Source: Nanobdellota archaeon (GTDB taxonomy: Archaea > Nanobdellota > Nanobdellia > Pacearchaeales > GW2011-AR1). Taken from it: a stretch of DNA of 64,000 bases. A program made the translations under genes and the position numbers. Where the stretch lies: NCBI GenBank assembly GCA_038044205.1, contig JBBTAN010000017.1, positions 104,452 to 168,451 of the forward strand, read 5' to 3'. Shown here in pieces: positions 16,940 through 62,741 of this stretch (its first letter is position 1; every line of letters begins with the position of its first letter). A model generated the notes under the pieces. That model saw only the letters and a list, made by a program, of their open reading frames with translations. It searched no databases and had not been told where the DNA came from.

Positions 16940-16942
16940 ACA

Positions 16943-37668: not shown

Positions 37669-37685
37669 TATATTGGAGTGATGAA

Positions 37686-43667: not shown

Positions 43668-43668
43668 T

Positions 43669-49191: not shown

Positions 49192-49854
49192 ATGATAGTA
49201 GTGAATGTAAATAATGAAGCTGTTGATATATCTGATTCAACAGTAGGGTTAAATTTAGCTCCAATTCAGCCTGGAGAAAGAGTAACTGTATCTAATGAAT
49301 ATGAATCATCTACTAATTTTTTAGATGCTTATGATAAAGGATATATTAAATTAGTTGGTACAGAATATCCAGTTGGTCTTTTTTTGACTAAAAGAAGATT
49401 TGATGTTTCTGGAAGTTCTACTGGTCCTGTTGGCCCTACAGGACCAAGTGGGCCATCTGGGGCCACTGGACCGCAGGGGACTACAGATACGAGCTTCCAG
49501 GTGGTTGTAGACGGTAATAAAAGAACAATAACAACTGGTGAGAAGAATGTATTCTGGATTACTTTCAATGGGACTATAAGTGAAGTAATATTATTAGGAA
49601 AACCTACTTCTGGGGTATCTGGTTCAATTCAAATTGATATATGGAAAAGTAATTATTTGAATTATCCTCCTACTGTTACTGATTCTATTACATCATCAAC
49701 TCCTCCTTCAATTGTTTCTGGGATAAAATCAAAAAATTCTACTTTGACAGGTTGGAATAAATCACTATATATTGGAGATATTGTTAAATTTAATATTGAT
49801 TCAGTAGATAATATAACTAATGTTACTGTTATTGTTAGATATTTAAAAATATAA
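49192..49854 (+). CDS. short collagen-like fibre protein sharing the MIVxN N-domain
   Basis: GPVGPTGPSGPSGATGPQG tract. Confidence 0.7.
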   Translation: MIVVNVNNEAVDISDSTVGLNLAPIQPGERVTVSNEYESSTNFLDAYDKGYIKLVGTEYPVGLFLTKRRFDVSGSSTGPVGPTGPSGPSGATGPQGTTDTSFQVVVDGNKRTITTGEKNVFWITFNGTISEVILLGKPTSGVSGSIQIDIWKSNYLNYPPTVTDSITSSTPPSIVSGIKSKNSTLTGWNKSLYIGDIVKFNIDSVDNITNVTVIVRYLKI

Positions 49855-49874: not shown

Positions 49875-50459
49875 ATGTTAGAGGTTGCTATTAGTTTAAG
49901 AAGAGATTTGGAAGGTGAAGGTGAAATAGGTAAATTGGAAAAACAAGAAAAGAAATGTGGAGATATATTAGTTGCTAAAATTGCACCGGCTAATTGGGGT
50001 GAAGAAGAAAAAAGATTATTTCTTATTACTTATTTAGATGATCCTGAATTAGAATTAAAAGTAAAAGAAAATGGTGGACTTATTTCTTATCCTTATGCTG
50101 TTGATGGGGCTTCATTAGAGTTACCTGGCACTATAAATGGAGATTTATTAAAAGATGATCCAAAGGATGAACCATCTACACATGTAATGATAAATAGATC
50201 TAAGTATAGGGTTAAAGTTGGGCAAGAAATAAATAAAGAAAAACAACCTAATATGTTTATTAGTTCTAATGGATTAGATTGTAAAAATATTACTGAAGAA
50301 ATATCAGAACCAACCACTAAATTAAATAATATTTCTTATTGTCCAATTTGTAATGAAAAACAAGAAAGTAGAGATGGTTTTTGTCCTAAATGTAACAATT
50401 CATCTGCACAATATTTAGAATTATCTGATTTATTTTTTGATGATTCTGCTAGGATATAA
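49875..50459 (+). CDS. hypothetical protein with C-terminal zinc ribbon
   Basis: CPICNEK...CPKCNN; last 7 codons lie in the 24-nt repeat. Confidence 0.6.
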   Translation: MLEVAISLRRDLEGEGEIGKLEKQEKKCGDILVAKIAPANWGEEEKRLFLITYLDDPELELKVKENGGLISYPYAVDGASLELPGTINGDLLKDDPKDEPSTHVMINRSKYRVKVGQEINKEKQPNMFISSNGLDCKNITEEISEPTTKLNNISYCPICNEKQESRDGFCPKCNNSSAQYLELSDLFFDDSARI

Positions 50460-50484
50460 TTTGATGATTCTGCTAGGATATAAT
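50437..50484 (+). repeat. perfect tandem duplication of 24 nt (TTGATGATTCTGCTAGGATATAAT)
   Basis: 50437-50460 = 50461-50484; third copy at 55350. Confidence 0.9.
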
Positions 50485-50486
50485 CT

Positions 50487-53400
50487 TTGGCAACGGTTAA
50501 AATTGTAAATCCAGATGGTAGTGGAGATTATACTACATTAGCCCTCTGGGAAGACTGGGCTGATGGTCAGGGCACGACTGATCAATGGGCAGAATGTGAG
50601 ATAGACTCAGTTGACAATACAAGTCTTGGTCGCGTTGCTGTGGCTGGGTGGTCCGCCACATCAGTAGGGGCCTACCCGCGCATATATACTTCGCTCGCGC
50701 ATAGACACAACGGTCAGAGTGGCAGTGCTGGTGCGTGGATATTAGGATCCGCCAGCACGACATGTATAGCCATAACTGTAAATTATGTCAGGGTCGAGGG
50801 AATCAGATGCGTCATCACTGGCCTGTCCGGCAAGGGCGTCACCGTTGCCAATATGGGTTCATGCTTTATTGATAGCGTACTCGTTGACTACACAGGAACC
50901 ACTCCAACCTCAAGCACTTTTGCGGTATTTTGCGACTCTAACACCACGTCCAATTACACTGTGCAAAACTGTCTGTATTACGGAAGCGGGATATCTCAGG
51001 GGCAAGCGATCTTTATTCGCGCGCTGAGTGGGTCGAACGTCACCGCCAGCATCTATAACAACTCTGGAGTTGGTTGGGAATACGGGTTCTACTTTAACGA
51101 GGTAGCCGGTGGAACGCTGGCAGTCACGTCCACCAATAACATTGCGACGGCGGCTACCACACAGTGCTACATAACTGCTGGAGACCTCGTAATCACGCAG
51201 ACCTACTGTATCTCCAGCGACACGTCAGCCGACAATTGGTTTGGAGCAGGTAATCAAATTAGTGTAGCTGGAAATACTATATTTACAAATGCTACTACTA
51301 ATTTTAATTTAGTATCTGGCTGTGTCGCTGTTGACGCTGGTGCAACGATTGCTTCTTTTGATTGGGATGCCGTACATTTAGACGCAGATAATTGGCGTCC
51401 ACAAGGCGCTTCGTGGGATATAGGTGCGCTTGAGTTACAGGATAATAATTCAAGTAGTTCTAGTTCATCATCTTCATCAGAATCCCCGTCTTCTCAAAGT
51501 TCTCAATCTTCTCAAAGTTCTAGTTCATCATCTTCATCGTTTAAAGATCAAAGTTCGTCAAGTAGTTCTTCGAGTGAATCTGATGAACCATCATCAAGCA
51601 GTTCGTCTTCTGAAAGTGAATCAAGTATAAGTTCTCAATCATCGTCTTCTACATCATTAGGTGAATCTAGTTCATCCTCATTTAGTTCTAGTAGTTCTTT
51701 AGGATTTAGTTCATCAAGTTCCAGTTCGTCAGAATTAATAAATTCGAGTAGTTCATTGTCTAGTTCCAGTTCTTTATCTAGTTCTTTATCTGAAAGTTCG
51801 AGTAGTTCATTATCTAGTTCAAGTTTATCATCTGAATCTTCATCTAGTTCAACATCTTTAGGAGAATCTTCATCTAGTTCCTCTTCGTCAGAGTTAGTTA
51901 AATCTTCGAGTTCAGAGTCTAGCTCTTCTAGTTTATCTAGCTCATCATCTGAATCTAGTTCATCATCAGAATCAAGTAGTAGTGAAAGTTCAAATTCTTC
52001 TTCATCTGAATTGATAAATTCGAGCAGTTCACTTTCAAGTTCAAGTTCTTTGTCTAGTTCATCATCTGAAAGTTCAAGTAGTTCTTTGTCAAGTTCAAGT
52101 TCTTCATCAGAATTAATAAATTCATCTAGTTCTTTATCTAGTTTATCAAGTTTAAGCTCTAGTTCGTCATCCGAATCAAGTTCTTCTAGCGAATCTAGTT
52201 CAAGTTCATTAGGATTTAGTTCTTCTTCATCGGAATCATCAAGTAGTTCTTCATCTATCTCTTCCTTGTCTAGTGAATCTAGTTCTAGTTCAACTTCGTT
52301 AGGTGAGTCTTCATCTAGCTCAAGTTCAGAATCTTCTCCTAGTTCATCATCAACCTCGCTTGGGGAGTCTTCATCAAGTTCGTCCAGTTCTACATCATTA
52401 GGTGAGTCATCATCTAGTTCAACCTCTCTTGGTGAATCTTCATCTAGTTTTTCATCATTATCATCATCTAGTTCTTTATCATCTGAAATAGCAAAATCTT
52501 CAAGTTCGGAATCAAGTTCAAGTTCATCATTATCAAGTGAATTAATAAAATCAAGTAGTTCTTTGTCAAGTTTAAGTTCTTTATCAAGTTCATCTTCAGA
52601 AAGTTCTTTAAGTTCGGAATCGAGTTCAAGTTCATCATTATCAAGTGAATTAATAAATTCAAGTAGTTCATTATCTAGTTCATCAAGTGAATCTAGTTCT
52701 AGCTCAACATCGTTAGGTGAGTCAAGTTCATCTTCTACATCATTAGGGGAATCGAGTTCTAGTTCTTCTTCATCAGAATTGATAAACTCTAGTAGTTCTT
52801 TATCAAGTAGTAGCTCATCAAGTGAATCATCGTCCAGTTCAACTTCATTAGGAGAGTCTAGTTCATCTTCTTCCAGTGAATCTTCATCTAGTTCTTCTTC
52901 ATTGGGGTCTAGTTCTAGTTCAGGTTCTAGTTTATCATCTGAAAGTTCAAGTAGTTCTTTGTCAAGTTCAAGTTCATCATCTGAATTAGTAAATTCTTCT
53001 AGTTCTTTATCTAGTTCTTCTAGTGAGTCTTCATCTAGTTCTACTTCGTTAGGGGAGACTTCATCTAGTTCCAGTTCAGAATCTTCTTCTAGTTCATCCT
53101 CAACCTCGCTTGGTGAATCATCGTCAAGTTCGTCTTCATCAACATCATTAGGAGAATCGTCATCAAGCTCATCTAGTGAATCTTCTTCTAGTTCAAATTC
53201 ATCGGAATTAATAAATTCATCAAGTTCAGAATCTAGTTCTAGTTCTTCATTAAGTTCTTTATCCAGTTCAAGTTCTAGTTCTAAATTAATAAATTCGAGT
53301 AGTTCTTTTTCAAGTGAATCTAGTTCTTCTTCATTAGGATTTAGTTCAAGTTCGTCATCTAGTTCGTTGTCAGAATCTAGTTTATCCAGTGAATCATCTT

Positions 53401-54326
53401 CGAGTTCTACATCGTTAGGAGAATCTTCATCAAGTTCTTCTTCTTTATCTTCTGAAAGTTCAAGTAGTTCTTTATCCAGTTCTAGTTCATCTGAATTAGT
53501 AAATTCAAGTAGTTCTTTATCTAGTTCTAGTTCTTTATCTAGTTTATCATCCGAAAGTTCTTTATCTAGTTCGAGTTCTTCCAGTGAGTCAAGTTCTAGT
53601 TCAACATCTTTAGGAGAGTCTTCATCTAGTTCAGAATCTTCTTCCAGTTCATCCTCAACCTCGCTTGGAGAGTCTTCGTCAAGTTCCAGTTCTTCTTCGT
53701 CAACATCATTAGGTGAATCTTCATCCAGTTCATTATCTTCTGAATTAATAAATTCATCTAGCTCGGAATCAAGTGATAGTTCAGAATCCAGTTCATCATC
53801 TGAAAGTTCAAGTAGTTCGCTGTCCAGTTCTTCTTCATCATCAGAATTAATAAATTCATCTAGTTCAGAATCAAGTTCTTCTAGTTCAACATCGTTAGGT
53901 GAATCAAGTTCAAGCTCATCTAGCGAGTCATCTTCTAGTTCTACTTCGTTAGGTGAATCTTCATCTAGTTCTACATCATTAGAAGAATCAAGTTCTAGTT
54001 CTGAATCTTCATCTAGCTCAACCTCATTAGGGGAATCTAGTTCTAGTTCTTCGTCATCTGAATTGATTAATTCAAGTAGTTCTTTATCTAGTTCTAGTTC
54101 TTCCTCAAGTTCAATATCTGGAAGTTCTGGAAGTCCCTCCTCAAGTTCTAGTTCCTCGTCAGAATTAATAAATTCATCAAGTTCTTTATCTAGTTTATCA
54201 AGTTTAAGTTCTTTATCATCTGAATCTAGTTCATCATCAAGCTCTAGTTCACTATCCGGATATGAATCGAGTTCTTCTAGTTCATCTTCATTTTTTGAAT
54301 ATATATTTATGGTAGTTAATTGTTAA
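50487..54326 (+). CDS. giant beta-helix (pectate-lyase-fold-like) head plus ~960-aa serine-rich repeat protein (TTG start)
   Basis: N-terminal ~315 aa paralogous to 55376 gene, ends ...DADNWRPQGASWDIGALE; then STSLGESSSSS / SELINSSSSLSS repeats. Confidence 0.75.
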   Translation: MATVKIVNPDGSGDYTTLALWEDWADGQGTTDQWAECEIDSVDNTSLGRVAVAGWSATSVGAYPRIYTSLAHRHNGQSGSAGAWILGSASTTCIAITVNYVRVEGIRCVITGLSGKGVTVANMGSCFIDSVLVDYTGTTPTSSTFAVFCDSNTTSNYTVQNCLYYGSGISQGQAIFIRALSGSNVTASIYNNSGVGWEYGFYFNEVAGGTLAVTSTNNIATAATTQCYITAGDLVITQTYCISSDTSADNWFGAGNQISVAGNTIFTNATTNFNLVSGCVAVDAGATIASFDWDAVHLDADNWRPQGASWDIGALELQDNNSSSSSSSSSSESPSSQSSQSSQSSSSSSSSFKDQSSSSSSSSESDEPSSSSSSSESESSISSQSSSSTSLGESSSSSFSSSSSLGFSSSSSSSSELINSSSSLSSSSSLSSSLSESSSSSLSSSSLSSESSSSSTSLGESSSSSSSSELVKSSSSESSSSSLSSSSSESSSSSESSSSESSNSSSSELINSSSSLSSSSSLSSSSSESSSSSLSSSSSSSELINSSSSLSSLSSLSSSSSSESSSSSESSSSSLGFSSSSSESSSSSSSISSLSSESSSSSTSLGESSSSSSSESSPSSSSTSLGESSSSSSSSTSLGESSSSSTSLGESSSSFSSLSSSSSLSSEIAKSSSSESSSSSSLSSELIKSSSSLSSLSSLSSSSSESSLSSESSSSSSLSSELINSSSSLSSSSSESSSSSTSLGESSSSSTSLGESSSSSSSSELINSSSSLSSSSSSSESSSSSTSLGESSSSSSSESSSSSSSLGSSSSSGSSLSSESSSSSLSSSSSSSELVNSSSSLSSSSSESSSSSTSLGETSSSSSSESSSSSSSTSLGESSSSSSSSTSLGESSSSSSSESSSSSNSSELINSSSSESSSSSSLSSLSSSSSSSKLINSSSSFSSESSSSSLGFSSSSSSSSLSESSLSSESSSSSTSLGESSSSSSSLSSESSSSSLSSSSSSELVNSSSSLSSSSSLSSLSSESSLSSSSSSSESSSSSTSLGESSSSSESSSSSSSTSLGESSSSSSSSSSTSLGESSSSSLSSELINSSSSESSDSSESSSSSESSSSSLSSSSSSSELINSSSSESSSSSSTSLGESSSSSSSESSSSSTSLGESSSSSTSLEESSSSSESSSSSTSLGESSSSSSSSELINSSSSLSSSSSSSSSISGSSGSPSSSSSSSSELINSSSSLSSLSSLSSLSSESSSSSSSSSLSGYESSSSSSSSFFEYIFMVVNC
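51438..54290 (+). repeat. coding serine-rich low-complexity repeat region
   Basis: degenerate TC(A/T)/AGT-rich repeats; antisense frames give E/L/D-rich artefact ORFs. Confidence 0.85.
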
Positions 54327-54390
54327 AAAAGGATTTTACTAAATTAAAAAATAATATAAATATAATAATTTATACGCTAGGAGAATTTAG

Positions 54391-55341
54391 GTGATAGTAA
54401 TTAATATGTATAAAGAAGCTGTAGATATATCAGATTCAACAGTAGGACTTAGTTTACCTCCAATTCAGCCAGGAGAAAAGGTAACTGTTCCTGATGTTTT
54501 TGAAGCATCTTCTAGTTTTATTAGTGCCTATAATAATAAATATATAAAAATAATAGGTATTCCACATCCGATTGGTCTTTTTCTTACTAGTCAGAGATTT
54601 GATGTTGAGAGTTCCGCAGTAGTAAATAACGCTAAATATGTATTAAAAGCGGGAGTGTCAGGTGGTCAAACTGCTTATGGAGGAACAGGAGCAGGAGATA
54701 CTCTTTCTTTATCTGGTTCAAATGTTGATTCGGGTGGAGTTATTTTAGATAAAGCTACTGTAAGTGAATTAGTTGGAACTGGAGACCGACCTGTTATTGT
54801 TGATTCAACTGGTAAATTAAAAACATCAGGTATAACAAGAACTATCGTATTAAGTGGTGCGGGTGGTTGGCCATCCACAACTAATGGATGTTCAGTAAAT
54901 ACAAAAGTTAATTTTCCTAGTAATGGAGTTGATGCTTATACTCTTGATTTCAGTTCAGCTATTGTTGAATATGCCCAATGGACATTAGCTATGCCCGCTA
55001 CTTGGGATGGAGGAACTGTATCCGCTAAATTTTATTGGGTTGCTAATGATACTACTACAAATTCTGTTGTTTGGGGTTTACAAGGTAGATCTTATTCAAA
55101 TGGAGAATTGATAGATCAAACATGGGGGACGGCGAAAGAAATAATAGATGCTAATGATTCTATAGCTTATCAGTTGAGAATATCAGATGTTACAGACGTT
55201 ATTACTTTAGCGGGGACTCCTGCTGGTGGAGAACTAGTCCAATTTAGAGCATACCGTAACGCAATAGATATCGCAGATACTCTTGCTGTAGATGCCAGAT
55301 TGATTCTGATAATGTTAACTTATACTGATGTTGGACCATAA
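54391..55341 (+). CDS. fibre/receptor-binding-like protein sharing the MIVxN N-domain (GTG start)
   Basis: N-terminal 60 aa ~70% identical by eye to 49192 gene. Confidence 0.7.
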   Translation: MIVINMYKEAVDISDSTVGLSLPPIQPGEKVTVPDVFEASSSFISAYNNKYIKIIGIPHPIGLFLTSQRFDVESSAVVNNAKYVLKAGVSGGQTAYGGTGAGDTLSLSGSNVDSGGVILDKATVSELVGTGDRPVIVDSTGKLKTSGITRTIVLSGAGGWPSTTNGCSVNTKVNFPSNGVDAYTLDFSSAIVEYAQWTLAMPATWDGGTVSAKFYWVANDTTTNSVVWGLQGRSYSNGELIDQTWGTAKEIIDANDSIAYQLRISDVTDVITLAGTPAGGELVQFRAYRNAIDIADTLAVDARLILIMLTYTDVGP

Positions 55342-55349
55342 TTTATTTT

Positions 55350-55373
55350 TTGATGATTCTGCTAGGACATAAT
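55350..55373 (+). repeat. third copy of the 24-nt leader repeat (1 mismatch)
   Basis: TTGATGATTCTGCTAGGACATAAT followed by identical CTTTGGCAACG. Confidence 0.85.
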
Positions 55374-55375
55374 CT

Positions 55376-58063
55376 TTGGCAACGACAAAAACTATAAAAT
55401 CAGCAGATGGTGATTATACTACGTTAGCCCTTTGGGAGGATTGGGCTGATGGGCAGGCAACTGCCGACCAGTGGGCCGAATGTTATTCAGGCTTCAATAT
55501 GGGAGTGGTAGTTTTTGCGGGGTGGACTACGACTCCTACTTCAGGCGCATATCCAAAGATATACACTCCCATTGCTCAACGCCACAATGGGAAAGATGAC
55601 TCTTCAGGTGACGGAGCATATCTAACTGTTGGTGCCACTGACATTGGCATTGACATTCAGATTCCCTATGTTCGGGTCGAAGGCATCCGCGTCAACATGC
55701 GGAATAGCGCCGCTTGTGTGGGCATCTACCCTCGTTCAGGCGGCAATAACGTCATCCTCGATAGTAACTTGATTTCTTGCAAGGTCGCCAATTCTACTGC
55801 GGCGATATTTCCAACCCCTAATGCTACCTGTGACACGATTATACGAAACAACCTCATCTATGGTGGAGGGACTTGCGATTACGGCATCTACGTTTATGTA
55901 ACTTCAAATATCACCGCTACCGTGTATCTGCAGAACAACACTATTCAAAGTTGTGAAGCTAGAGGAATTGTTGTAACTACAAACAACAACGTTGGGGAGG
56001 TTATCAACTGCACTTCCACTAACAATATCTCTACCTCTGCTGCGCTTCAGGATTACTATGCGGAAGGGGTCTCCGCAACCCTTACCAATACTTATTGTCT
56101 TTCGAGCGACGCTACCGCTGGTACTGACGGGGTTGATGGAAACCTTACAGGCAGGGCCGCGTCCGATCAGTTCGTCAATACCACAAATGATTTTACGTTG
56201 AAGAGCACGGCTGACGCTCTTAATGCTGGTACTACCATAGCCGCTTTTGACTGGGACGCTCTACATCTTGACGCGGACAACTGGCGTCCTCAGGGTGCGG
56301 CTTGGGATATGGGAGCGATTGAGTCTGCGGTTGTAGAATCCAGTTCATCCTCAAGTTCGTCTTTGTCATCTTCTTCCAGTTCGCCCAGTTCGTCTTCGTC
56401 ATCTTCTTCTTTTAAAGATCAAAGTTCATCCAGTTCCAGTTCCTCTGAATTAATAAATTCAAGTAGTTCAGAATCAAGTGAAAGTTCAGAATCTTCGTCA
56501 AGTTCAACATCGTTAGGTGAGTCATCATCCAGTTCTTCATCTCTGTCGTCATCTAGTTCTAGTTCATCTGAAATAGTGAAATCTTCAAGTTCTGAATCTA
56601 GTTCTAGTTCTTCATTGTCATCTGAATTAATAAATTCATCTTCTTCTTTATCTAGTTCTAGTTCTAGTTCTAGTTCTAGTTCTAGTTCTAGTTCGGAGTT
56701 GATAAATTCAAGTAGTTCACTATCAAGTTCTTCTAGTGAGTCGTCATCAAGTTCTTCTTCTTTAGGTGAGTCATCTTCTAGCTCTACGTCATTGGGAGAG
56801 TCTAGTTCGTCTTCATTGTCTAGTTCATCTAGCAATAATTGTTTTACTATTGAAACTATGAAGGCATTATGGCATTTTGATACTAGCGATACTGGTGTGA
56901 CTCCAGATATAAGTGGAAACGGTTATGATCTTACTTTAAATGGAGATGCGTCTATAATAAGTGGTGGAAAATTTAATAGTTGTCTTATTTTAGATGGAGA
57001 TGGTGATTATGCTGTTTCAGATGTAGATATTACTGATTTTGATTTTAGTTCAGGGAGTTTTACTGCCGCTTGTTGGGTGAAAACTACAGCTACTCCAGCT
57101 ACTACAATGATTATTATGTCTTATCACAATGGGGGGGCATATTCTCTTTCTAATATAGCATGGTGGGTTGGTATTCCATCAGGGCAAAAGCTCCAACTTG
57201 TTGCTACGTTTAATGGTTCCACTTGGGGTGTTCTCTTATCCACGGCTGGCAGTACTGGTATTTGTGATGGGAATTGGCATCATGTCGCTTTGGTTAGAAA
57301 TGGAAATGCTTGGAATTTATACCTTGACGGGACATCAGTATTAAGTACTACGGCAAGTGGGTCATTGTATGAACCTGCTAATAGAATGATGAATTTTGGA
57401 AGGGGAATGAACGATAGTGGGCAATGGAGTTATTATAATGGAAGGATTGATGAAGCTATAATAGCAAAATATGCTGTTTGGACAGGTAATTTTTCAAGGC
57501 CGGAATCTCCTTATTGCGATCCTGTTACATTATCTTCTAGTTCAAGTAGTCAATCATCTAGTTCTTCATCTTCATCTATTTCTAGTGAATTAATAAATTC
57601 ATCTTCTTCTTTATCTAGTTCTAGTTCTAGTGAGTCATCATCCAGTTCAACCTCTCTTGGTGAATCTTCATCTGGTTCTAGTTCATCATCATCATCTGAA
57701 TTAATAAATTCAAGTAGTTCTTTGTCAAGTTTAAGTTCTTTATCTAGTTTATCATCAGAAAGTTCTTTAAGTTCTGAATCTAGTTCTAGTTCTTCATTAT
57801 CATCCGAATTGATTAATTCAAGTAGCTCTTTATCTAGTTCCTCTAGTTCATCATCTGAATCAGATGAACCTTCTTCAAGTTCATTTTCTAGTTCTTCTTC
57901 ATTGTCATCTTTATCTTCTCCTAGTTCTTTATCTTCTAGTTCGTTATCGTCTAATTCTTCTTCCAGTTCTCTGTCGTCAAATTCTTCTTCTAGTTCATCC
58001 TCATCGGAATTAGCGCATATTCCAAGAAATCCATTTTTCTCAAGTCCTTTAATGATTGTATAA
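55376..58063 (+). CDS. beta-helix head + Ser-rich repeats + LamG/concanavalin-like domain + Ser-rich repeats (TTG start)
   Basis: paralog of 50487 head; LamG-like segment ~56828-57535 (NWHHVALVRNGNAWNLYLDG...GRIDEAII). Confidence 0.75.
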   Translation: MATTKTIKSADGDYTTLALWEDWADGQATADQWAECYSGFNMGVVVFAGWTTTPTSGAYPKIYTPIAQRHNGKDDSSGDGAYLTVGATDIGIDIQIPYVRVEGIRVNMRNSAACVGIYPRSGGNNVILDSNLISCKVANSTAAIFPTPNATCDTIIRNNLIYGGGTCDYGIYVYVTSNITATVYLQNNTIQSCEARGIVVTTNNNVGEVINCTSTNNISTSAALQDYYAEGVSATLTNTYCLSSDATAGTDGVDGNLTGRAASDQFVNTTNDFTLKSTADALNAGTTIAAFDWDALHLDADNWRPQGAAWDMGAIESAVVESSSSSSSSLSSSSSSPSSSSSSSSFKDQSSSSSSSSELINSSSSESSESSESSSSSTSLGESSSSSSSLSSSSSSSSEIVKSSSSESSSSSSLSSELINSSSSLSSSSSSSSSSSSSSSELINSSSSLSSSSSESSSSSSSLGESSSSSTSLGESSSSSLSSSSSNNCFTIETMKALWHFDTSDTGVTPDISGNGYDLTLNGDASIISGGKFNSCLILDGDGDYAVSDVDITDFDFSSGSFTAACWVKTTATPATTMIIMSYHNGGAYSLSNIAWWVGIPSGQKLQLVATFNGSTWGVLLSTAGSTGICDGNWHHVALVRNGNAWNLYLDGTSVLSTTASGSLYEPANRMMNFGRGMNDSGQWSYYNGRIDEAIIAKYAVWTGNFSRPESPYCDPVTLSSSSSSQSSSSSSSSISSELINSSSSLSSSSSSESSSSSTSLGESSSGSSSSSSSELINSSSSLSSLSSLSSLSSESSLSSESSSSSSLSSELINSSSSLSSSSSSSSESDEPSSSSFSSSSSLSSLSSPSSLSSSSLSSNSSSSSLSSNSSSSSSSSELAHIPRNPFFSSPLMIV

Positions 58064-58117
58064 TTTCTAACAAAAAACAAAAGAAATATAATATAATCTC
58101 CATATAAGGAGATCTCA

Positions 58118-59254
58118 ATGGAATTCCCTAAAAAATTTAGATTTCATTTATTATCTCTTGCTCATATTCCAACCACAAAAGAATATTCTGCTTGTGCTTA
58201 TTCTCAAAAAATAATAAAATTATCAACTATGTTAATGAAATTAGGTCATGATGTTTATTTTTATGGTAATGAAGATTCAGAATTACCATGCACTGAATTA
58301 GTTCCTGTTCTAACTAAAAAAGAAAGAGATGATTGTTATGGTCCTTATGATTGGAAAAAAGAATTTTTTAAGTTTAGTAATACAGATTCAGTTTGGACAA
58401 CATTTAATAATAGATCAATAGTTGAAATAAATAAAAGAAAAGAAAAATTTGATTTTCTTTTATGTACAATGGGGCATTGGCATAGGCCAGTAGCAGATGC
58501 TGTTAAAGATATTACTGTAGTAGAACCTGGTATAGGATATAGTGGAGTTTTTAGTAGTTTTAGAGTATTTGAGAGCTATGCTTGGATGCACTATATTTAT
58601 GGTCAATTAAAACAAGAAACAGGTAATTTTTATGATTGTGTAATTCCTAATTTTTATGATCCTATGGATTTTCCTTATAGTGAGAAAAAAGAAGATTATT
58701 TTGTTTATATGGGTAGGTTAATATATAATAAAGGAGTAGATATTGCAGTTCAGACAACTAAAAAGATAGGGGCTAAACTTATAGTTGCTGGTCAGGGATC
58801 TTTAACTGATGGTGGATTGAATATAAAAGATAGTCATGTTGAGCATGTTGGTTGTTTAGGGATGAAAGAAAAAGGTGAGTTATTAAGTAAAGCTAAAGGG
58901 CTGTTTGTTCCAACTTATTATATAGAACCTTTTGGTGGAGTATCAATTGAAAGTTTTTTTGCTGGAACTCCTGTAATATCAACAGATTGGGGGTGTTTTT
59001 CAGAAAATAATATTCATGGTAAAACTGGATATAGATGTAGAACATTAGGTGAATTTATTTGGGCAGCAAAAAATATAGAAAATATAAAATCATACGATTG
59101 TAGACACTGGGCTGTAAATAATTTTTCTATGGATAGAATAGCGCAACAATATCAACATTATTTCGAAAATATAAGAGATCTTGATATAAATTTAGGTGCT
59201 GGATTTTACTCTGATAGAGTAGGAAATATGAATCATCTAACCAAATATTTTTAA
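58118..59254 (+). CDS. GT4-family (group 1) glycosyltransferase
   Basis: EPFGGVSIESFFAGTPVISTDWG motif; 378 aa. Confidence 0.7.
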   Translation: MEFPKKFRFHLLSLAHIPTTKEYSACAYSQKIIKLSTMLMKLGHDVYFYGNEDSELPCTELVPVLTKKERDDCYGPYDWKKEFFKFSNTDSVWTTFNNRSIVEINKRKEKFDFLLCTMGHWHRPVADAVKDITVVEPGIGYSGVFSSFRVFESYAWMHYIYGQLKQETGNFYDCVIPNFYDPMDFPYSEKKEDYFVYMGRLIYNKGVDIAVQTTKKIGAKLIVAGQGSLTDGGLNIKDSHVEHVGCLGMKEKGELLSKAKGLFVPTYYIEPFGGVSIESFFAGTPVISTDWGCFSENNIHGKTGYRCRTLGEFIWAAKNIENIKSYDCRHWAVNNFSMDRIAQQYQHYFENIRDLDINLGAGFYSDRVGNMNHLTKYF

Positions 59255-59776: not shown

Positions 59777-59799
59777 AAAAATATTTCCTTTCTATATAA

Positions 59800-60303: not shown

Positions 60304-60468
60304 AATTAGTTCCCCTTTTTCACGCAAATACTACACCGTAACTCATGTAATATTTTTCCATATATCTGTCATTATTTGATTCTGAAAATATTTTCTAATT
60401 TCCTGCAAAGAAATAATATAATATATTTGATTTCTTTTTATTTTTATTTTTTGATAAAGAGGAGAAAA

Positions 60469-61509
60469 ATGAATAAATGTATTGAAGTTATTAATGTTTT
60501 AGCTCCAACTAGGATTTGTGACTGCGGCGGTTGGACAGATACTTGGTTTGCGGGTCATGGGAAAGTATTCAATATAGCAGTTTATCCTTGTGCGGAAGTT
60601 CAATTGAAAATATTCAATGAACTTTTTGAGAATGGTAAAAGAGTTGTAATACATGCTGAAAATTATGGAGATAGATACGCATTAGATCTTAATGGAGATG
60701 GTTTTGATAGGCATCCTTTATTAGAAGCAGCAATAAAATATATGGGCATTCCTGAAAACATAGCTATAGAAGCTAATATATATAGCGAGATGCCTGTAGG
60801 TTGCTCCGTAGGCACGTCTGCAGCCGTCACAGTGGCTATGATAGCTGCACTTGATGCTATTACGCCAGGTAGGATGAGTGCCCATGAAATAGCCCTTGCT
60901 GCACAAAAAATAGAAACAGAGATGTTGGGTCAACAATGCGGCATACAGGACCAGATTTGTAGTGCTTATGGTGGTATTTGTTACATGGATATGTACCAAT
61001 ACCCCCATGCTTCAGTTAGTAAATTAAATATACCACAGGACTTTAGATGTGAATTAGAAAGAAGACTTGCTCTTATTTATTTAGGTAAAAGCCATTCTTC
61101 TTCTGCTATCCATAAAGAAGTAATAGAATTATTAGAAAAGGGTAATGATGCTCAACAGAGACTTGAGCCTCTTAGAAAGTCTGCTGAACATGCTAAAAAT
61201 GCTGTAACTAATTGTGATTTTCAAGGTTTAGCTATGGCTATGAATCTAAATACACAGGCGCAAGAATCATTACATGGTAAATTAGTAAGCGATAAAGCTT
61301 GGAAAGTAATAAATATAGTTAAAAATTATGGAATTTGTGGTATTAAAGTAAATGGAGCAGGTGGAGATGGGGGTTCATTAACTATTCTTTGTGATGAATC
61401 ATCCCATAAAAAAAGAGAAATGTTAAAAGAAATAGAAAAACAAGTAACTGGGTGTATTTCGATTCCTATTTATATCAATGACAATGGTGTGAGAGTTTGG
61501 AAAAGTTAG
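60469..61509 (+). CDS. GHMP-family sugar kinase (HddA/fucokinase-like)
   Basis: CDCGGWTD N-terminal motif, PVGCSVGTSAAVTVAMIAAL motif II; SD-proximal ATG. Confidence 0.7.
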   Translation: MNKCIEVINVLAPTRICDCGGWTDTWFAGHGKVFNIAVYPCAEVQLKIFNELFENGKRVVIHAENYGDRYALDLNGDGFDRHPLLEAAIKYMGIPENIAIEANIYSEMPVGCSVGTSAAVTVAMIAALDAITPGRMSAHEIALAAQKIETEMLGQQCGIQDQICSAYGGICYMDMYQYPHASVSKLNIPQDFRCELERRLALIYLGKSHSSSAIHKEVIELLEKGNDAQQRLEPLRKSAEHAKNAVTNCDFQGLAMAMNLNTQAQESLHGKLVSDKAWKVINIVKNYGICGIKVNGAGGDGGSLTILCDESSHKKREMLKEIEKQVTGCISIPIYINDNGVRVWKS

Positions 61510-61557
61510 AAGGAATATATTTATTTATTTTTGAATAGAAAATAAAGGAATAAGTAT

Positions 61558-61755
61558 ATGTGGTATAAAAGATTTCAAGGCACTATAGAAATGTCCATTC
61601 CAGAGGAAGAGACAGGTCAATATATAGATGAGAATTTAATTCCTCGTCAATCTGATGCTGATAATACAGAAAGTGAAAATGCTGACCAGTATGGTTTAGA
61701 AAGAGAATTAAATAAGTTAAGAGGTGTCAAAAGACAATTAAAAAGGAAAATTTAA
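61558..61755 (+). CDS. small protein with MWYKRF N-terminus
   Basis: 65 aa. Confidence 0.5.
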   Translation: MWYKRFQGTIEMSIPEEETGQYIDENLIPRQSDADNTESENADQYGLERELNKLRGVKRQLKRKI

Positions 61756-62064
61756 ATGCCTGAAGAAAAAAAAGAACCAGAACCTGTTACTGCAAAGGAA
61801 CCTGAAAAAGCATCATGGAATCATATATCTATGGTCAATGATGGAAAGTTGATGAAAGCATTTATAGATGGTAAAGAAGTTTTTTGCACAAATCAAGAGA
61901 AGATTGCAGAAGTTAGTAAAGAAATAAAAGAAGAAGTTAAAGTAGAGGAAAAGGCTAAACCTAATTATGCTGGAACTAATTATGTTCCTCTTTCTGGCTC
62001 TGGTAGAGTATCAACTAAATTTCTAACTGGATTTTTAGGAAAGAAAAATGAAAACAAACGATAG
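61756..62064 (+). CDS. hypothetical protein
   Basis: 102 aa, adjacent to previous stop. Confidence 0.5.
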   Translation: MPEEKKEPEPVTAKEPEKASWNHISMVNDGKLMKAFIDGKEVFCTNQEKIAEVSKEIKEEVKVEEKAKPNYAGTNYVPLSGSGRVSTKFLTGFLGKKNENKR

Positions 62065-62392
62065 ATTCATTAAAATATTTTCTTCTTTAGCTGATAATCT
62101 AATTAAAGAATCAATGGATTCTAATAAAAAGTGTAACAGAGATTTTGTTTTCCCTCCAATTGGTAAAGATAAAAGAGGGCATTATCCTTTAGGTCCAAGT
62201 CCTTTATGCGGAAAGAAAGCCAGAGAAAGAGCAAGTAAATGTAAGACTATAACTGACTGGATGAAAACAAGAGGATTGACCTGTGAAAAATTAAAAAAAT
62301 TAGTCAATCAAAAAGCGATGAGTTCAGGTAAGAAAAAGAATATTTTTGCACCTCAAAAACAAGTTCCAAATATTCCACCAAAACCAGTATAA
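62048..62392 (+). CDS. hypothetical basic protein
   Basis: 114 aa. Confidence 0.5.
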   Translation: MKTNDRFIKIFSSLADNLIKESMDSNKKCNRDFVFPPIGKDKRGHYPLGPSPLCGKKARERASKCKTITDWMKTRGLTCEKLKKLVNQKAMSSGKKKNIFAPQKQVPNIPPKPV

Positions 62393-62393
62393 T

Positions 62394-62675
62394 TTATTCG
62401 TCTTCTATTTTCCTATAGCCTAGTTTCCATAGGAATTTACCAATGTCTTCTGCGGAATTAGTTACTGTTTCTTCTTCCAAATTCCAAAATAAAGCATGAA
62501 GTGCTTCGTGAATAAATACTTCTAATTTTCTTTTAGGATTTAATTTTTCTTTTATTACTATTGTTTTCTTTTTTGTGGAGGGATCGTCACAAGAACCATC
62601 TGAACTATCTGTCCTATTTGATAATTTTATTTCATATAACTTTTTGTTGAATTTATGAAAAAATAATTTTTTCAT
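62394..62675 (-). CDS. small HExxH protein (minimal metallopeptidase-like)
   Basis: FIHEALHALF; strong SD. Confidence 0.5.
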   Translation of the reverse strand: MKKLFFHKFNKKLYEIKLSNRTDSSDGSCDDPSTKKKTIVIKEKLNPKRKLEVFIHEALHALFWNLEEETVTNSAEDIGKFLWKLGYRKIEDE

Positions 62676-62741
62676 TTATTTCTCCTTAATATATAATTAT
62701 TAATAAAATATATTTATTCCTCTTTTTGTAAGGAACGAGAA

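What the first reader, a model, noticed from the sequence alone, without database searches (positions are those of the whole stretch)
50487..58063. Two giant serine-rich repeat proteins with beta-helix heads: mucin-like fibres with a self-encoded glycosylation toolkit?
The 1279-aa and 895-aa paralogs start with a ~315-aa domain whose repeats and terminal ...DADNWRPQGA.WD(I/M)GA.E signature fit a right-handed parallel beta-helix, the fold of tailspike depolymerases. They continue with hundreds of residues of STSLGESSSSS / SELINSSSSLSS-type repeats, more than 60% Ser by eye. Serine-rich repeat adhesins of Gram-positive bacteria are heavily O-glycosylated by dedicated transferases. Here the window supplies a Maf-like protein, GT-A, GT8-like and GT4 transferases, methyltransferases, a sugar kinase and a nucleotidyltransferase. 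A head-first (N-terminal enzyme, C-terminal stalk) serine-rich fibre with its own glycosylation genes would be a new kind of virion or cell-surface appendage.
Basis: partly seen in the sequence, partly recalled or inferred. Interest (0 to 1): 0.75.

Follow-up and report, generated by a model that had tools for sequence, protein, structure and literature searches.

The report
Phage fibre proteins on giant polyserine tethers
Two neighbouring genes of a very large groundwater phage encode a beta-helix module followed by up to 950 residues that are about 70% serine, an extreme form of a serine-linker design found in related uncultured phages and probably serving as a long flexible, possibly sugar-coated, tether for binding modules.

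Summary
ORF A (50487-54326, 1279 aa) and ORF B (55376-58063, 895 aa) share a ~318-aa N-terminal domain (43% identity). Both continue with tracts that are ~70% Ser. B also carries a LamG lectin-like domain between two Ser tracts. Independent assemblies reproduce all of B and half of A's tract exactly.

The "head" is predicted to be a right-handed beta-helix ending in a choice-of-anchor-Q motif. Nothing supports a depolymerase. The module belongs to a large uncharacterised family that occurs alone, in tandem arrays of 3-18 copies, or fused to varied C-terminal parts.

In at least 13 contig families a small conserved gene (p194) lies directly upstream of the head gene, and tail-fibre-type genes are neighbours. 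Polyserine is this family's usual inter-module linker (20-150 aa). It is hyper-expanded here (949 aa) and in two relatives (919 and 433 aa).

A large glycan-gene island surrounds the locus, but its link to the Ser tracts is circumstantial.

My best reading: these are modular phage appendage proteins whose binding modules sit on very long, probably O-glycosylated, polyserine tethers. I rate this a new variant of a known kind, of moderate interest.

The parts
49192..49854 (+). p220: fibre-like protein with a GPxG collagen-like stretch and a C-terminal domain of phrog_35197/phrog_10330 ('virion structural protein'). Its N-terminal 77 aa are paralogous to p316.
   Evidence: 58% identity over aa 1-77 with 54391-54630. 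Orthologues lie upstream of the head genes in L008 and L033.
49875..50459 (+). p194: small conserved partner gene with a Zn-ribbon insert. Its last 8 codons (FDDSARI*) contain the ribosome-binding site of ORF A.
   Evidence: A homologue lies directly upstream of head genes in 13 contig families. Its fold has no PDB match.
50436..50483 (+). Perfect 24-bp tandem duplication (TTTGATGATTCTGCTAGGATATAA x2). It comprises the 3' end of p194 plus the leader and Shine-Dalgarno motif of ORF A.
   Evidence: 3 matches in the window, 0 expected.
50487..51440 (+). ORF A head (aa 1-318): right-handed beta-helix module with a choice-of-anchor-Q-like C-terminal cap.
   Evidence: AF2 pLDDT 71.6, pTM 0.78. Foldseek returns beta-helix proteins only. 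NCBIfam NF041518 E=9.3e-6 on aa 270-318. The family profile finds 8670 representatives.
51441..54290 (+). ORF A polyserine tract (aa 319-1268, ~71% Ser). Ser runs of 4-8 are punctuated by SELINSSSS and STSLGESSSSS-type units. Contour length is ~340 nm.
   Evidence: Window 52725 onward is identical in an independent assembly. The same units are conserved in L033 at only ~65% DNA identity.
54291..54326 (+). ORF A C-terminal hydrophobic peptide FFEYIFMVVNC plus the stop codon. It is a candidate docking strand.
   Evidence: Similar peptides end L033 (AYENVYFVITF) and L008 (FFFYIYE). Stand-alone heads end with a K/R-rich stretch followed by a hydrophobic one.
54391..55341 (+). p316: tail-fibre-type protein. 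The N-terminal 77 aa are shared with p220. The C-terminal half is a widespread fibre distal domain.
   Evidence: 199 homologues of the C-terminal half. Their N-terminal parts carry Collagen, Mtd_N, PTR (phage tail repeat), DUF2793 or DUF5907. A homologue sits next to the head genes in L010.
55349..55372 (+). Relic copy of the p194 3' end and leader upstream of ORF B (1 mismatch). It marks B as a segmental duplicate of the p194-end plus head unit.
55376..56329 (+). ORF B head (aa 1-318): beta-helix module paralogous to that of A.
   Evidence: 43% identity to A. Pfam Beta_helix below threshold, E=0.002.
56330..56833 (+). ORF B polyserine tract 1 (aa 319-486).
   Evidence: Identical in independent assemblies.
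56834..57532 (+). ORF B globular insert (aa 487-719) with a Laminin_G_3 / concanavalin-A-like lectin domain.
   Evidence: Pfam PF13385 E=8.5e-18. PHROG matches to LamG regions of virion structural, baseplate and tail-fibre families.
57533..58063 (+). ORF B polyserine tract 2 (aa 720-877), C-terminal peptide ELAHIPRNPFFSSPLMIV and stop codon.
58118..59254 (+). GT4 glycosyltransferase directly downstream of B.
   Evidence: Pfam Glycos_transf_1 E=6.7e-15 and phrog_3408 E=1.6e-107. 47% identical to the GT of cyanophage ACG-2014f, which lies between a collagen-repeat gene and a tail-fibre gene.
36560..39275 (+). FkbM-family methyltransferase (36560-37180), a 162-aa ORF, and a GT8-like 529-aa protein (37686-39275). 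This block is syntenic with L008, the relative that has a 919-aa polySer tail.
   Evidence: (glycogenin DxD region, E=0.0011).
60376..63239 (+). GHMP sugar kinase (HddA-like) and a cytidylyltransferase-like protein, giving a likely sugar-activation step. The glycan island continues past the window end.
   Evidence: L020 shows two GT2 genes, three methyltransferases, a GT47, DegT, and FdtA+GT7C downstream.

Best explanation
A and B are paralogous modular appendage (fibre or adhesin-like) proteins of a very large tailed phage. The source contig is 499,814 bp, from Hainich groundwater.

Anatomy. Each protein starts with one independently folding right-handed beta-helix module. This module belongs to a widespread, uncharacterised family (MATVKTIKPxGxGDYTTLxxWEDWADGQ ... 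FDWDAxHxDxDxWRPQGxAWDMGALE). The family's normal inter-module linker is polyserine. In A that linker has expanded to ~950 residues and lies between the beta-helix and a short conserved hydrophobic C-terminal peptide. In B two ~160-residue Ser tracts flank a LamG lectin-like domain.

Proposed mechanism. The Ser tracts act as very long, flexible, hydrophilic tethers. A's contour length is about 340 nm. The tethers let the binding modules (the beta-helix, and LamG in B) sweep a large volume around the particle and make first, reversible contact with polysaccharide on a host or matrix surface. The surrounding phage-encoded glycan genes probably O-glycosylate the tracts, which would stiffen them and protect them from proteases. 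The genes form a conserved cassette with a p194-family gene (translationally coupled to A) and with tail-fibre-type genes (p220, p316).

Shown: the ORFs, their composition, their reproducibility across assemblies, the fold class, the family distribution, the cassette synteny and the neighbouring glycan genes.

Inferred: virion location, the tether function, glycosylation, and which end is fixed. I slightly favour the C-terminal peptide as the fixed end of A.
For: 1. Real, conserved coding sequence. Independent assemblies are identical. Ser codon usage equals that of the rest of the window. The relative L033 keeps the same peptide units (SELINSSSS, STSLGESSSSS) and the same type of C-terminal peptide at only ~65% DNA identity.

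2. Beta-helix fold and the choice-of-anchor-Q motif.

3. Modular logic. The same head is found alone; in arrays of 3-5 copies per phage protein joined by short S- or S/C-rich linkers (L008, L010, L023, L034); and fused to LamG, RHS/YD, T-rich or Zn-binding C-terminal parts. Polyserine abuts heads in about 9 of 17 distinct loci, with lengths from 45 to 949 aa. L014 has the same head-polySer-LamG-polySer layout as B.

4. Phage and fibre context:
- p194 is directly upstream of heads in 13 contig families.
- The C-terminal domain of p316 is shared with proteins carrying Collagen, Mtd_N or PTR.
- p220 matches virion-structural PHROGs.
- Relatives sit next to a tape-measure gene or next to terminase, portal and protease genes.
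- 11 IMG/VR loci carry the family, against a single hit in 185,579 GTDB genomes.
- A Shine-Dalgarno motif precedes 24 of 30 ORFs in the window.

5. Glycan island. GT4 is adjacent, and its cyanophage orthologue lies among fibre genes. The window also holds a GT8-like protein, FkbM, a GHMP kinase and a cytidylyltransferase-like protein. Beyond the window are two GT2, a GT47, three methyltransferases, DegT and FdtA. FkbM and the GT8-like gene are also next to the 919-aa polySer gene of L008.

6. C-terminal peptide. Hydrophobic residues are enriched at the C-termini of 38 stand-alone heads (score 3.03 versus 2.39 +/- 0.17).
Against: - No terminase, capsid, portal or tail hallmark lies in the window, so a virion location is inferred from relatives only.
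- The heads have no recognisable N-terminal particle-binding domain.
- Orientation is not fixed across the family: in P0002 and P0037 the head is C-terminal.
- The glycosylation link is circumstantial. L033 has a 433-aa tract but no glycosyltransferase within +/-10 kb. The GT4 orthologue in cyanophages lies near collagen-like fibres that have no polyserine. The island could instead serve collagen-like proteins, host-surface glycans or DNA modification.
- The Foldseek matches are weak, giving fold class only.
- The C-terminal-strand signal is modest and the peptides are not alignable across the whole family.
- The p194 fold gave no functional clue.
Confidence: 0.5

Rival explanations
1. The N-terminal beta-helix is a tailspike-type depolymerase held at the tip of a mucin-like, heavily O-glycosylated serine stalk. 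This would be a new head-first enzymatic fibre.
For: Beta-helix fold with tailspikes, PL6 lyases and pectate lyases as nearest folds. LamG in B could act like a carbohydrate-binding module beside a catalytic module, as in CAZymes with polyserine linkers (PMC2386152). Glycan genes are nearby. The conserved C-terminal peptide would fit a C-terminal anchor.
Against: No sequence match to any PL/GH/CE family or solved structure. Foldseek E >=0.007 and TM <=0.42. The module occurs in tandem arrays of 3-18 copies per protein, which is unusual for catalytic domains. The conserved residues are mostly an Asn ladder and Gly, as expected for beta-helix scaffolds. No catalytic residues could be assigned.
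Confidence: 0.15
2. The Ser tracts are unmodified. They are either neutral run-away expansions of an ordinary flexible linker, produced by replication slippage, or bare "entropic bristles" that keep particles from sticking to each other or to aquifer minerals. The neighbouring glycan genes serve other targets.
For: Relatives manage with 20-150-aa linkers. The tracts are internally repetitive, and units are shared between A and B at up to 88% identity. L033 carries a 433-aa tract with no glycosyltransferase within 10 kb. Polyserine linkers in bacterial CAZymes are described simply as domain separators.
Against: Three lineages independently keep tracts of 430-950 aa, with open frames and degenerate DNA. 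The punctuating motifs and the C-terminal peptide are conserved at 65% DNA identity. Codon usage has equilibrated with the genome, so the tracts are not recent slippage products. Both loci with ~900-aa tracts also carry the FkbM and GT8-like genes.
Confidence: 0.2
3. A and B are not particle components. They are made during infection and released at lysis, or act inside or on the host as soluble polysaccharide-binding or matrix-modifying proteins.
For: No hallmark virion gene lies nearby. The surrounding genes are metabolic: radical SAM enzymes, an amidoligase, glycosyltransferases and a kinase. Distant family members are giant surface proteins of CPR bacteria and Margulisbacteria.
Against: There is no signal peptide or lipobox. 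The cassette partners p220 and p316 are fibre-type proteins. Relatives lie in structural modules. The LamG region matches virion-structural PHROGs.
Confidence: 0.12
4. Artefact: a mis-assembled low-complexity region or an untranslated ORF.
For: Contig coverage is only 8x. Short contigs from other runs end inside the tracts. Public gene calls miss B entirely and call antisense E/L/D-rich ORFs instead.
Against: Independent assemblies are 100% identical over 5.4 kb, including all of B. The repeats are degenerate and therefore assemblable. The ORFs of 3.8 and 2.7 kb are open in one frame only. The architecture recurs in unrelated samples.
Confidence: 0.03

Closest known systems
Serine-rich repeat (SRR) glycoprotein adhesins of Gram-positive bacteria (GspB, Fap1, SraP, PsrP)
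   Same: Very long Ser-rich tracts flank a ligand-binding region: B has SRR - LamG - SRR. A GT4-family glycosyltransferase is adjacent. SRR proteins are glycosylated in the cytoplasm before export, which would also be the only option in a phage-infected cell (PMC7948813).
   Different: A and B have no extended signal peptide, no LPxTG and no (S-X)n dipeptide repeat; they have runs of S4-S8 instead. The window shows no GtfA/GtfB match and no SecA2/SecY2/Asp genes. They carry an N-terminal beta-helix module that SRR adhesins lack. They are phage-encoded.
Polyserine linkers (PSL) of modular carbohydrate-active enzymes (Saccharophagus degradans, Cellvibrio japonicus, Teredinibacter turnerae)
   Same: Runs of Ser separate independently folding modules, including carbohydrate-binding ones (PMC2386152). 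In relatives of this locus the Ser tracts are likewise 20-150-aa inter-module linkers.
   Different: The tract here is 949 aa, and in A it is terminal rather than between two domains. The proteins are not secreted (no signal peptide or lipobox). No catalytic module is identified.
Phage tailspikes and tail fibres with right-handed parallel beta-helix domains (e.g. CBA120 TSP2, Sf6, HK620)
   Same: Same fold class. The neighbours are fibre-type genes.
   Different: No N-terminal particle-binding domain and no match to a depolymerase family. The module is small (~318 aa), appears to fold on its own and is used in tandem arrays. It ends in a choice-of-anchor-Q motif.
Glycosylated fibrils of Mimivirus and other Megavirinae, built with virus-encoded glycan pathways
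   Same: A very large virus genome carries its own cluster for sugar activation, modification and transfer next to genes for surface fibres. These include collagen-like proteins and aminosugar enzymes such as DegT-type aminotransferases (PMC10117803 and PMC8456856, listed).
   Different: The host domain and virion type differ (tailed phage with bacterial-type translation signals). The fibril proteins are unrelated. Glycosylation here is not demonstrated.
Glycosylated virions of actinobacteriophages (Freeman et al. 2023, cited as ref. 34 in PMC13313380; details from my own knowledge, paper not held)
   Same: Phage-encoded glycosyltransferases and a methyltransferase are associated with glycosylation of virion proteins.
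   Different: To my knowledge the modified proteins there are capsid and tail-tube subunits, not dedicated polyserine fibre proteins. The glycosyltransferases are not shown to be related to those here.
Choice-of-anchor-Q / "right-handed parallel beta-helix repeat-containing" giant surface proteins of CPR and other uncultured bacteria
   Same: The head profile matches them strongly, with up to 17-18 tandem copies (P0012 to P0014; P0013 is a Parcubacteria MAG protein). They share the C-terminal DIGAxE cap.
   Different: The bacterial giants have no polyserine (maximum Ser window 0.14-0.23) and a different basic C-terminal motif. The close phage subfamily is almost absent from GTDB genomes.

Membership tests
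Gram-positive SRR glycoprotein adhesins | Extended N-terminal signal peptide for accessory-Sec export | tested here: not met
   The N-termini (MATVKIVNPDGSGDYTTL... and MATTKTIKSADGDYTTL...) have no hydrophobic h-region and are part of the beta-helix module. Feature definition from PMC7948813.
Gram-positive SRR glycoprotein adhesins | SRR1 - binding region - SRR2 layout | tested here: inconclusive
   B has Ser tract - LamG - Ser tract, but after a 318-aa head. A has a single tract and no binding region.
Gram-positive SRR glycoprotein adhesins | Alternating (Ser-X)n dipeptide repeats | tested here: not met
   No (S-X)n run of n>=5 in A or B. Ser occurs in runs of mostly 4-8. That SRR tracts are (Ser-X)n dipeptide repeats is from my own knowledge, not from the passages read.
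Gram-positive SRR glycoprotein adhesins | C-terminal LPxTG cell-wall anchor | tested here: not met
   No LPxTG-like motif. The proteins end in FFEYIFMVVNC and ...NPFFSSPLMIV.
Gram-positive SRR glycoprotein adhesins | Linked GtfA/GtfB and SecA2/SecY2/Asp genes | tested here: not met
   The adjacent GT4 matches BshA, Agl16 and generic GT4 models far below their cut-offs, and no GtfA model. No Sec or Asp domains appear among the Pfam hits for the ORFs scanned, nor in the pre-computed Pfam hits listed for genes just past the window end.
Gram-positive SRR glycoprotein adhesins | Dense O-glycosylation of the Ser tracts | not testable with these tools
   Needs mass spectrometry or lectin blotting.
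Tailspike-type beta-helix depolymerases | Right-handed parallel beta-helix fold | tested here: met
   The AF2 core (aa 80-270) has pLDDT 80-94 with three-strand rungs. All top Foldseek hits are beta-helix proteins, though with weak E-values. Pfam Beta_helix E=0.002, below the cut-off.
Tailspike-type beta-helix depolymerases | Membership of a known lyase or hydrolase family, or assignable catalytic residues | tested here: not met
   No Pfam, NCBIfam or PDB sequence match to any PL/GH/CE family. Best Foldseek E is 0.026 against PDB and 0.007 against BFVD.
Tailspike-type beta-helix depolymerases | N-terminal particle-binding domain ahead of the beta-helix | tested here: not met
   The conserved module starts at residue 1. 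Internal copies in tandem arrays keep the same N-terminal motif.
Tailspike-type beta-helix depolymerases | Homotrimeric assembly | not testable with these tools
   No multimer prediction was available. Tandem arrays suggest monomeric modules, but that is inference only.
Choice-of-anchor Q domain (NCBIfam NF041518) | Score at or above the curated cut-off | tested here: met
   25.8 bits against a cut-off of 25, E=9.3e-6, on head aa 270-318. This is marginal.
Laminin_G_3 / concanavalin-A-like lectin domain | Pfam PF13385 above the gathering score | tested here: met
   65.4 bits against 27.6, E=8.5e-18, on B aa ~549-692.
Polyserine linkers of modular CAZymes | A Ser run separating two folded modules | tested here: met
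   In B: head | LamG. In relatives: head | head (L010, L033, L034) and head | LamG (L014). A's tract instead links the head to an 11-aa peptide.
Polyserine linkers of modular CAZymes | Secreted enzyme with an identifiable catalytic module and linkers of tens of residues | tested here: not met
   No signal peptide and no catalytic family. The tracts are 158-168 aa in B (aa 319-486 and 720-877) and 949 aa in A.
Phage head/p194 fibre cassette (uncharacterised, defined here) | A p194-family gene directly upstream of a head-family gene | tested here: met
   In the window p194 ends 27 nt before A, and a relic of its 3' end precedes B. The same adjacency is seen in 12 other contig families.
Virus-encoded glycosylated surface fibrils (Mimivirus-like) | A virus-encoded glycan biosynthesis and transfer cluster linked to fibre genes | tested here: met
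   GT4, GT8-like, FkbM, GHMP kinase and a cytidylyltransferase-like protein in the window. Two GT2, a GT47, three methyltransferases, DegT and FdtA/GT7C lie just beyond it.
Virus-encoded glycosylated surface fibrils (Mimivirus-like) | The fibres are on the particle and carry the glycans | not testable with these tools
   Needs particle proteomics, glycoproteomics and EM.

The most novel reading that the evidence does not exclude
A ~500-kb phage coats its particle, or arms its tail, with mucin-like "hairs". These would be beta-helix or LamG binding modules on O-glycosylated polyserine tethers up to ~0.3 micrometres long. The tethers would be built by a phage-encoded glycosylation factory and fixed to the particle through a short C-terminal hydrophobic strand and/or the p194 partner. 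This would be a bacterial-virus counterpart of Mimivirus fibrils and of bacterial SRR adhesins, and the first dedicated glycoprotein fibre system in a phage.
Probability: 0.2. Interest if true: 0.8.

Novelty: new variant of a known kind. Interest (0 to 1): 0.55.

Why it matters
1. Appendage length. If the tracts are virion tethers, they extend the known range of phage appendages. A 950-residue disordered, possibly glycosylated, spacer would give a capture radius comparable to or larger than the particle itself. That would help a large, slowly diffusing phage in dilute groundwater.

2. A new cassette. The work defines an uncharacterised, widespread phage cassette (p194 gene, beta-helix head modules, polyserine linkers, variable binding domains). 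The head profile finds 8670 cluster representatives. Current gene callers often miss these genes or call them antisense: B is not on record as a gene anywhere. This affects the annotation of huge-phage genomes and predictions of host range.

3. A test case for phage glycan genes. The locus offers a concrete substrate candidate for the large glycan islands of huge phages, which are usually filed as auxiliary metabolic genes or removed as "cellular" contamination filters. The Hainich virome study excluded contigs of 100 kb or more that carried glycosyltransferase, nucleotidyltransferase or carbohydrate-kinase genes (PMC12960796).

Tried and rejected
- Cultured-phage comparison. tblastn of head A, P0008 and P0002, and megablast of window 40-64 kb, against 50,697 phage records found nothing. 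Only the GT4 found cyanophage orthologues.
- PHROG and Pfam scans found no terminase, portal, capsid or tail hallmark among 41 window ORFs scanned, nor any PHROG match for the eight L006 queries (seven neighbouring genes plus the C-terminal domain of the head gene).
- Sequence search of the head profile against the PDB gave nothing (best E ~1).
- The p194 partner gave a confident AF2 model (pLDDT 78) but no structural neighbour apart from its Zn-ribbon insert. Its role remains unknown.
- "Maf-like" 618-aa protein (33243-35099). Only a sub-threshold MptE-like hit (E=0.008), a PHROG "sialyltransferase" hit (1.2e-7) and no PDB match. I do not count it as an established Maf.
- Giant eukaryotic virus or CPR chromosome origin. 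I considered this because of the low GC, collagen, ankyrin/DUF3447 and the 0.1-micrometre filter fraction. I rejected it because of the Shine-Dalgarno motifs, TTG/GTG starts supported by homologues, the IS605-type transposase, tailed-phage relatives and near absence from GTDB genomes.
- Recent exchange of the Ser tail between co-occurring phages. Rejected: the tails of L033 and the window are only ~65% identical, like the flanking genes.
- Literature. No paper in the library links polyserine or serine-rich tracts with phage fibres or huge phages. The Hainich virome paper does not discuss this contig.
- The first attempt to scan viral contigs with the 12-sequence alignment failed for lack of a conserved stretch. 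A 5-sequence alignment worked.

Full report
**1. What is there**

Window 50487-54326 (+) is a 1279-aa ORF (A) and 55376-58063 (+) is an 895-aa ORF (B). Both start at TTG, 8 nt after an AGGA motif. Both are preceded by the same 24-nt leader, TTTGATGATTCTGCTAGGAYATAA. The start codon aligns with the initiator Met of homologues that begin MATVKTIKP.

The first ~318 residues of A and B are 43% identical. They end in FDWDAxHLDADNWRPQGAxWDxGAxE.

From residue ~319, A is ~71% serine for 950 residues (50-aa windows 0.64-0.78). It then ends with the 11-residue peptide FFEYIFMVVNC.

B has a Ser tract at aa 322-486 and a globular region at aa 487-719. The globular region contains a Laminin_G_3 / concanavalin-A-like domain (Pfam E=8.5e-18, above the gathering score). 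A second Ser tract follows at aa 720-877, and then the peptide ELAHIPRNPFFSSPLMIV.

**2. Is it real?**

The DNA repeats are degenerate: TRF reports 62-88% matches, and the best A-versus-B stretch is 88% over 173 bp. Serine is encoded by TCT, TCA and AGT in the same proportions as in 19 other ORFs of the window. The tracts are therefore old, and they are kept as serine at the protein level. They are not a recent slippage product.

The window comes from a 499,814-bp contig of the Hainich groundwater metagenome (ENA ERZ1292626, 0.1-micrometre fraction, 8x coverage). The identical 1279-aa product is on three contigs.

A 5,364-bp contig from a different sample (ERZ1292640, 0.2-micrometre fraction) is 100% identical and gap-free over window 52725-58088. 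That span covers the last 1.6 kb of A's tract and all of B. Two Logan assemblies of single runs are identical over 54073-56608 and 54073-55770. Short contigs do end inside the tracts, as expected for repeats. Only 51.4-52.7 kb rests on the large contigs alone.

Public gene calls contain A but not B. Two antisense E/L/D-rich ORFs were called in B's place.

**3. The head**

An AlphaFold2 model built on 12 sequences has mean pLDDT 71.6 and pTM 0.78. The core (aa 80-270) scores 80-94 and shows the repeating three-strand rungs of a right-handed beta-helix.

Every leading Foldseek match is a right-handed beta-helix protein, both in the PDB and in BFVD. Examples are CBA120 TSP2, PL6 alginate lyase, pectate lyases, and phage tailspikes and tail fibres. 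No match reaches E<=0.001, and TM-scores are <=0.42.

Pfam Beta_helix is sub-threshold (E=0.002). The last 50 residues meet the NCBIfam choice-of-anchor-Q model at its cut-off. A profile search against all PDB sequences finds nothing.

No result supports an enzymatic (depolymerase) function.

**4. The family**

A profile search of 1.84 billion cluster representatives finds 8670 proteins at E<=1e-3 and 395 at E<=1e-30. The module occurs in three forms:
- As a stand-alone ~330-360-aa protein.
- In tandem arrays, with up to 17-18 copies in proteins of 5,000-7,700 aa. One of these is annotated in a Parcubacteria MAG as a "right-handed parallel beta-helix repeat-containing protein".
- Fused to varied C-terminal parts: a Zn-binding domain (P0005, P0006, P0008), RHS/YD repeats (P0057), Thr-rich repeats (P0073), DRDIPFDA repeats (P0029), or polySer plus other domains (P0011).

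A module that is reused in tandem and shuffled with binding domains behaves like a structural or binding unit rather than a catalytic one.

The close subfamily is viral. IMG/VR holds 11 loci. Some relatives lie next to a tape-measure gene. Others lie next to terminase, portal and protease/capsid genes. There is only one hit, on a 2.4-kb contig, in 185,579 GTDB species genomes.

The window has bacterial-type translation signals, with a Shine-Dalgarno motif before 24 of 30 ORFs. It contains no phage hallmark gene. Its phage nature and the virion location of A and B are therefore inferences.

**5. A conserved cassette**

The gene just upstream of A (49875-50459, "p194") has homologues directly upstream of head genes in 12 other contig families. 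Its conserved C-terminus (..LSDLIFDDSxR) is encoded by the 24-nt leader that also carries A's ribosome-binding site. This suggests translational coupling. A relic of this 3' end precedes B, which marks B as a segmental duplicate. p194 gave a confident model but no structural neighbour.

The other two cassette genes are fibre-type:
- p220 (49192-49854) has a collagen-like stretch and a domain of PHROG families that include "virion structural protein".
- p316 (54391-55341) shares its first 77 residues with p220. Its C-terminal half is found in 199 or more proteins, among which Collagen, Mtd_N, PTR (phage tail repeat), DUF2793 or DUF5907 domains occur.

A 235-kb marine phage contig (L010) has the same set of genes. 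It carries a p316-type fibre gene, a stand-alone head, two p194-like genes, and a 1362-aa protein made of four heads joined by short Ser/Cys-rich linkers.

**6. Polyserine is this family's linker**

Ser tracts abut head modules in about 9 of 17 distinct loci:
- L010: 45 aa.
- L014: 64 and 88 aa. This protein has the same head - polySer - LamG - polySer layout as B.
- L034: 111 aa and at least 72 aa.
- L023 (P0011): 153 and 76 aa.
- L033/L036: 58 and 433 aa.
- L008: 919 aa, after three tandem heads.
- Window ORF A: 949 aa.

L033/L036 is a second phage from the same aquifer. Its tail uses the same units (SELINSSSS, STSLGESSSSS) and ends in a similar peptide (AYENVYFVITF versus FFEYIFMVVNC). The DNA of its tail is only ~65% identical to the window, no more similar than the flanking genes. 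This is protein-level conservation, not recent exchange.

Stand-alone heads end 10-30 residues after the DMGALE motif, with a K/R-rich stretch followed by a hydrophobic one. Hydrophobic residues make up 0.45-0.58 of positions 2-5 from the C-terminus, against 0.30 overall. The windowed score is 3.03, against 2.39 +/- 0.17 for random segments.

I therefore read A's tract as a hyper-expanded linker between the beta-helix and a C-terminal docking strand. This is a lead, not a demonstration.

**7. The glycan genes**

The following are confirmed in the window:
- A GT4 directly after B (Pfam E=6.7e-15; phrog_3408 E=1.6e-107).
- An FkbM-family methyltransferase.
- A 529-aa protein with a weak GT8/glycogenin DxD match.
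- A GHMP kinase closest to the heptose-7-phosphate kinase HddA.
- A cytidylyltransferase-like protein.

The "Maf-like" 618-aa protein is only weakly supported. The gene at 32385 is a DNA methylase.

Just beyond the window the island continues. It holds two GT2 genes, three methyltransferases, a GT47, a DegT aminotransferase and an FdtA/GT7C protein.

Two observations link the island to fibres:
- The GT4 orthologue of cyanophage ACG-2014f (47% identity) lies between a collagen-repeat gene and a tail-fibre gene.
- The FkbM and GT8-like genes are also found next to the 919-aa polySer gene of L008.

Two observations weaken the link:
- L033 has a 433-aa tract but no glycosyltransferase within 10 kb.
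- The cyanophage fibres near the GT4 orthologue have no polyserine.

Glycosylation of the tracts is plausible but untested.

**8. Most likely mechanism**

A and B are modular appendage proteins. Binding modules (the beta-helix, and LamG in B) are held on very long, flexible, hydrophilic polyserine tethers. A's contour length is ~340 nm at 0.36 nm per residue. The tethers enlarge the volume in which a big, slowly diffusing particle can make first contact with surface polysaccharide. The neighbouring glycan genes probably decorate the tethers, which would stiffen them and protect them from proteases.

Which end is fixed remains unresolved. However, the head is C-terminal in some relatives (P0002, P0037).

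Rivals, in order of weight:
- Unmodified linkers or entropic bristles.
- A true depolymerase head.
- Non-virion soluble proteins.
- An artefact.

**9. Comparison with known systems**

The proteins work like SRR adhesins in one respect: Ser-rich tracts flank a binding region, with a GT4 nearby. They fail every sequence-testable defining feature of that family: signal peptide, dipeptide repeats, LPxTG and GtfAB/aSec genes.

They resemble CAZyme polyserine linkers in logic, but not in length, secretion or catalysis.

They share only the fold class with tailspikes.

The closest functional analogy for the whole locus is the virus-encoded glycosylation of Mimivirus fibrils (papers listed) and of actinobacteriophage virions.

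I found no paper describing polyserine fibre proteins in phages.

**10. Verdict**

This is a new variant of a known kind: a phage fibre or adhesin module with an extreme polyserine tether, inside an uncharacterised but widespread cassette. Interest is moderate (0.55). It would be high if particle-bound, glycosylated hairs were demonstrated.

Noticed in passing
window 56419-56835 (-) and 57550-58080 (-): The public record calls two antisense E/L/D-rich ORFs (138 and 176 aa) instead of ORF B. B is not on record as a gene anywhere. The same antisense mis-calls occur over the polySer genes of L008. Gene callers systematically miss these genes.
   Followed up: yes
window 50436-50483 and 55349-55372: A 24-bp element occurs three times (0 expected by chance). 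It encodes the conserved C-terminus of p194 and carries the Shine-Dalgarno motif of the head gene. It is tandemly duplicated before A and survives as a relic before B.
   Followed up: yes
window 49192-49422 and 54391-54630: p220 and p316 share a 77-aa N-terminal domain (58% identity) but have different C-terminal domains. This is the usual pattern for fibres that dock on a common site and differ at the distal end.
   Followed up: partly
L033/L036 11960-12040 (second Hainich H43 phage, ~60-kb contigs): An in-frame TAA interrupts the second head (FDWDAVN*TRPQG) just before the 433-aa polySer tail, in two independent assemblies. It could be a pseudogene, read-through, or separate expression of the tail from the ATG in WDMGALE.
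   Followed up: no
L008 ~9030-9075: A frameshift lies inside the first of three tandem heads of the 919-aa-polySer gene. Sequencing error or real, it truncates the called protein P0007 at 195 aa.
   Followed up: no
L023/L024 3038-3734 (relative carrying P0011): This related phage encodes a peptide chain release factor (PCRF/RF-1 domains) split over two ORFs. Such genes are typical of large phages that manipulate stop-codon decoding.
   Followed up: no
L025 2440-6615: Downstream of a p194-like gene lies a 1391-aa protein with no head. It has RCC1-type repeats and BspA-like leucine-rich repeats joined by Ser/Thr-rich linkers. The p194 gene therefore partners other modular adhesin-like genes as well.
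   Followed up: partly
L003 5026-6696; L010 9533-10738 (-): Marine jumbo-phage relatives have further proteins with Ser/Cys-rich tracts (SSSSCSSSSC...). One links an N-terminal region to a domain I took by eye, untested, to be a papain-like peptidase.
   Followed up: no
window 64000 onward (L020 10400-20399): The glycan island continues for at least 10 kb past the window. It holds two GT2 genes, three methyltransferases (one FkbM), an exostosin-type GT47, a 611-aa DegT aminotransferase and an FdtA/GT7C protein.
   Followed up: partly
window 1-18000: This region has only small + strand ORFs (<=203 aa) with no family matches, very strong GC skew (up to 0.55) and five tRNA genes (Leu-taa, Lys-ttt twice, Arg-tct, Glu-ttc). 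It looks like a phage early region. No tRNA-Ser lies in the window despite 970 Ser codons in A and B.
   Followed up: no
window 22151-24424 (-), 25685-26959 (-): A 757-aa ankyrin/DUF3447 repeat protein, and an IS605/TnpB-type transposase (phrog_506 E=3.7e-47). L033 also carries a TnpB-like gene near its head cassette.
   Followed up: no
window 41902-44998: A cluster comprising a lysine-2,3-aminomutase-like radical SAM enzyme, a trypsin-like protease (- strand) and an amidoligase. More radical SAM genes lie at 21426 and 35103. This may be a peptide or amino-acid modification system, unrelated or related to the fibre proteins.
   Followed up: no
window 59237-60327 (-): A coiled-coil protein that by eye has a hydrophobic C-terminal segment (not tested), and a stand-alone response-regulator receiver domain. 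Both are on the opposite strand, wedged between the GT4 and the sugar kinase.
   Followed up: no
window 39897-41057 (-): A 386-aa collagen-triple-helix protein matching several phage tail-fibre PHROGs (E down to 3.9e-22). It is another fibre gene, 9 kb upstream of the cassette.
   Followed up: no
window 50001-52000 and 54001-58000: GC is 0.38-0.40 over the head and Ser-tract genes, against 0.28-0.31 in the flanks. The heads use GC-richer Ser codons than the rest of the window. This could hint at acquisition from a higher-GC relative; L008 is 43% GC.
   Followed up: no
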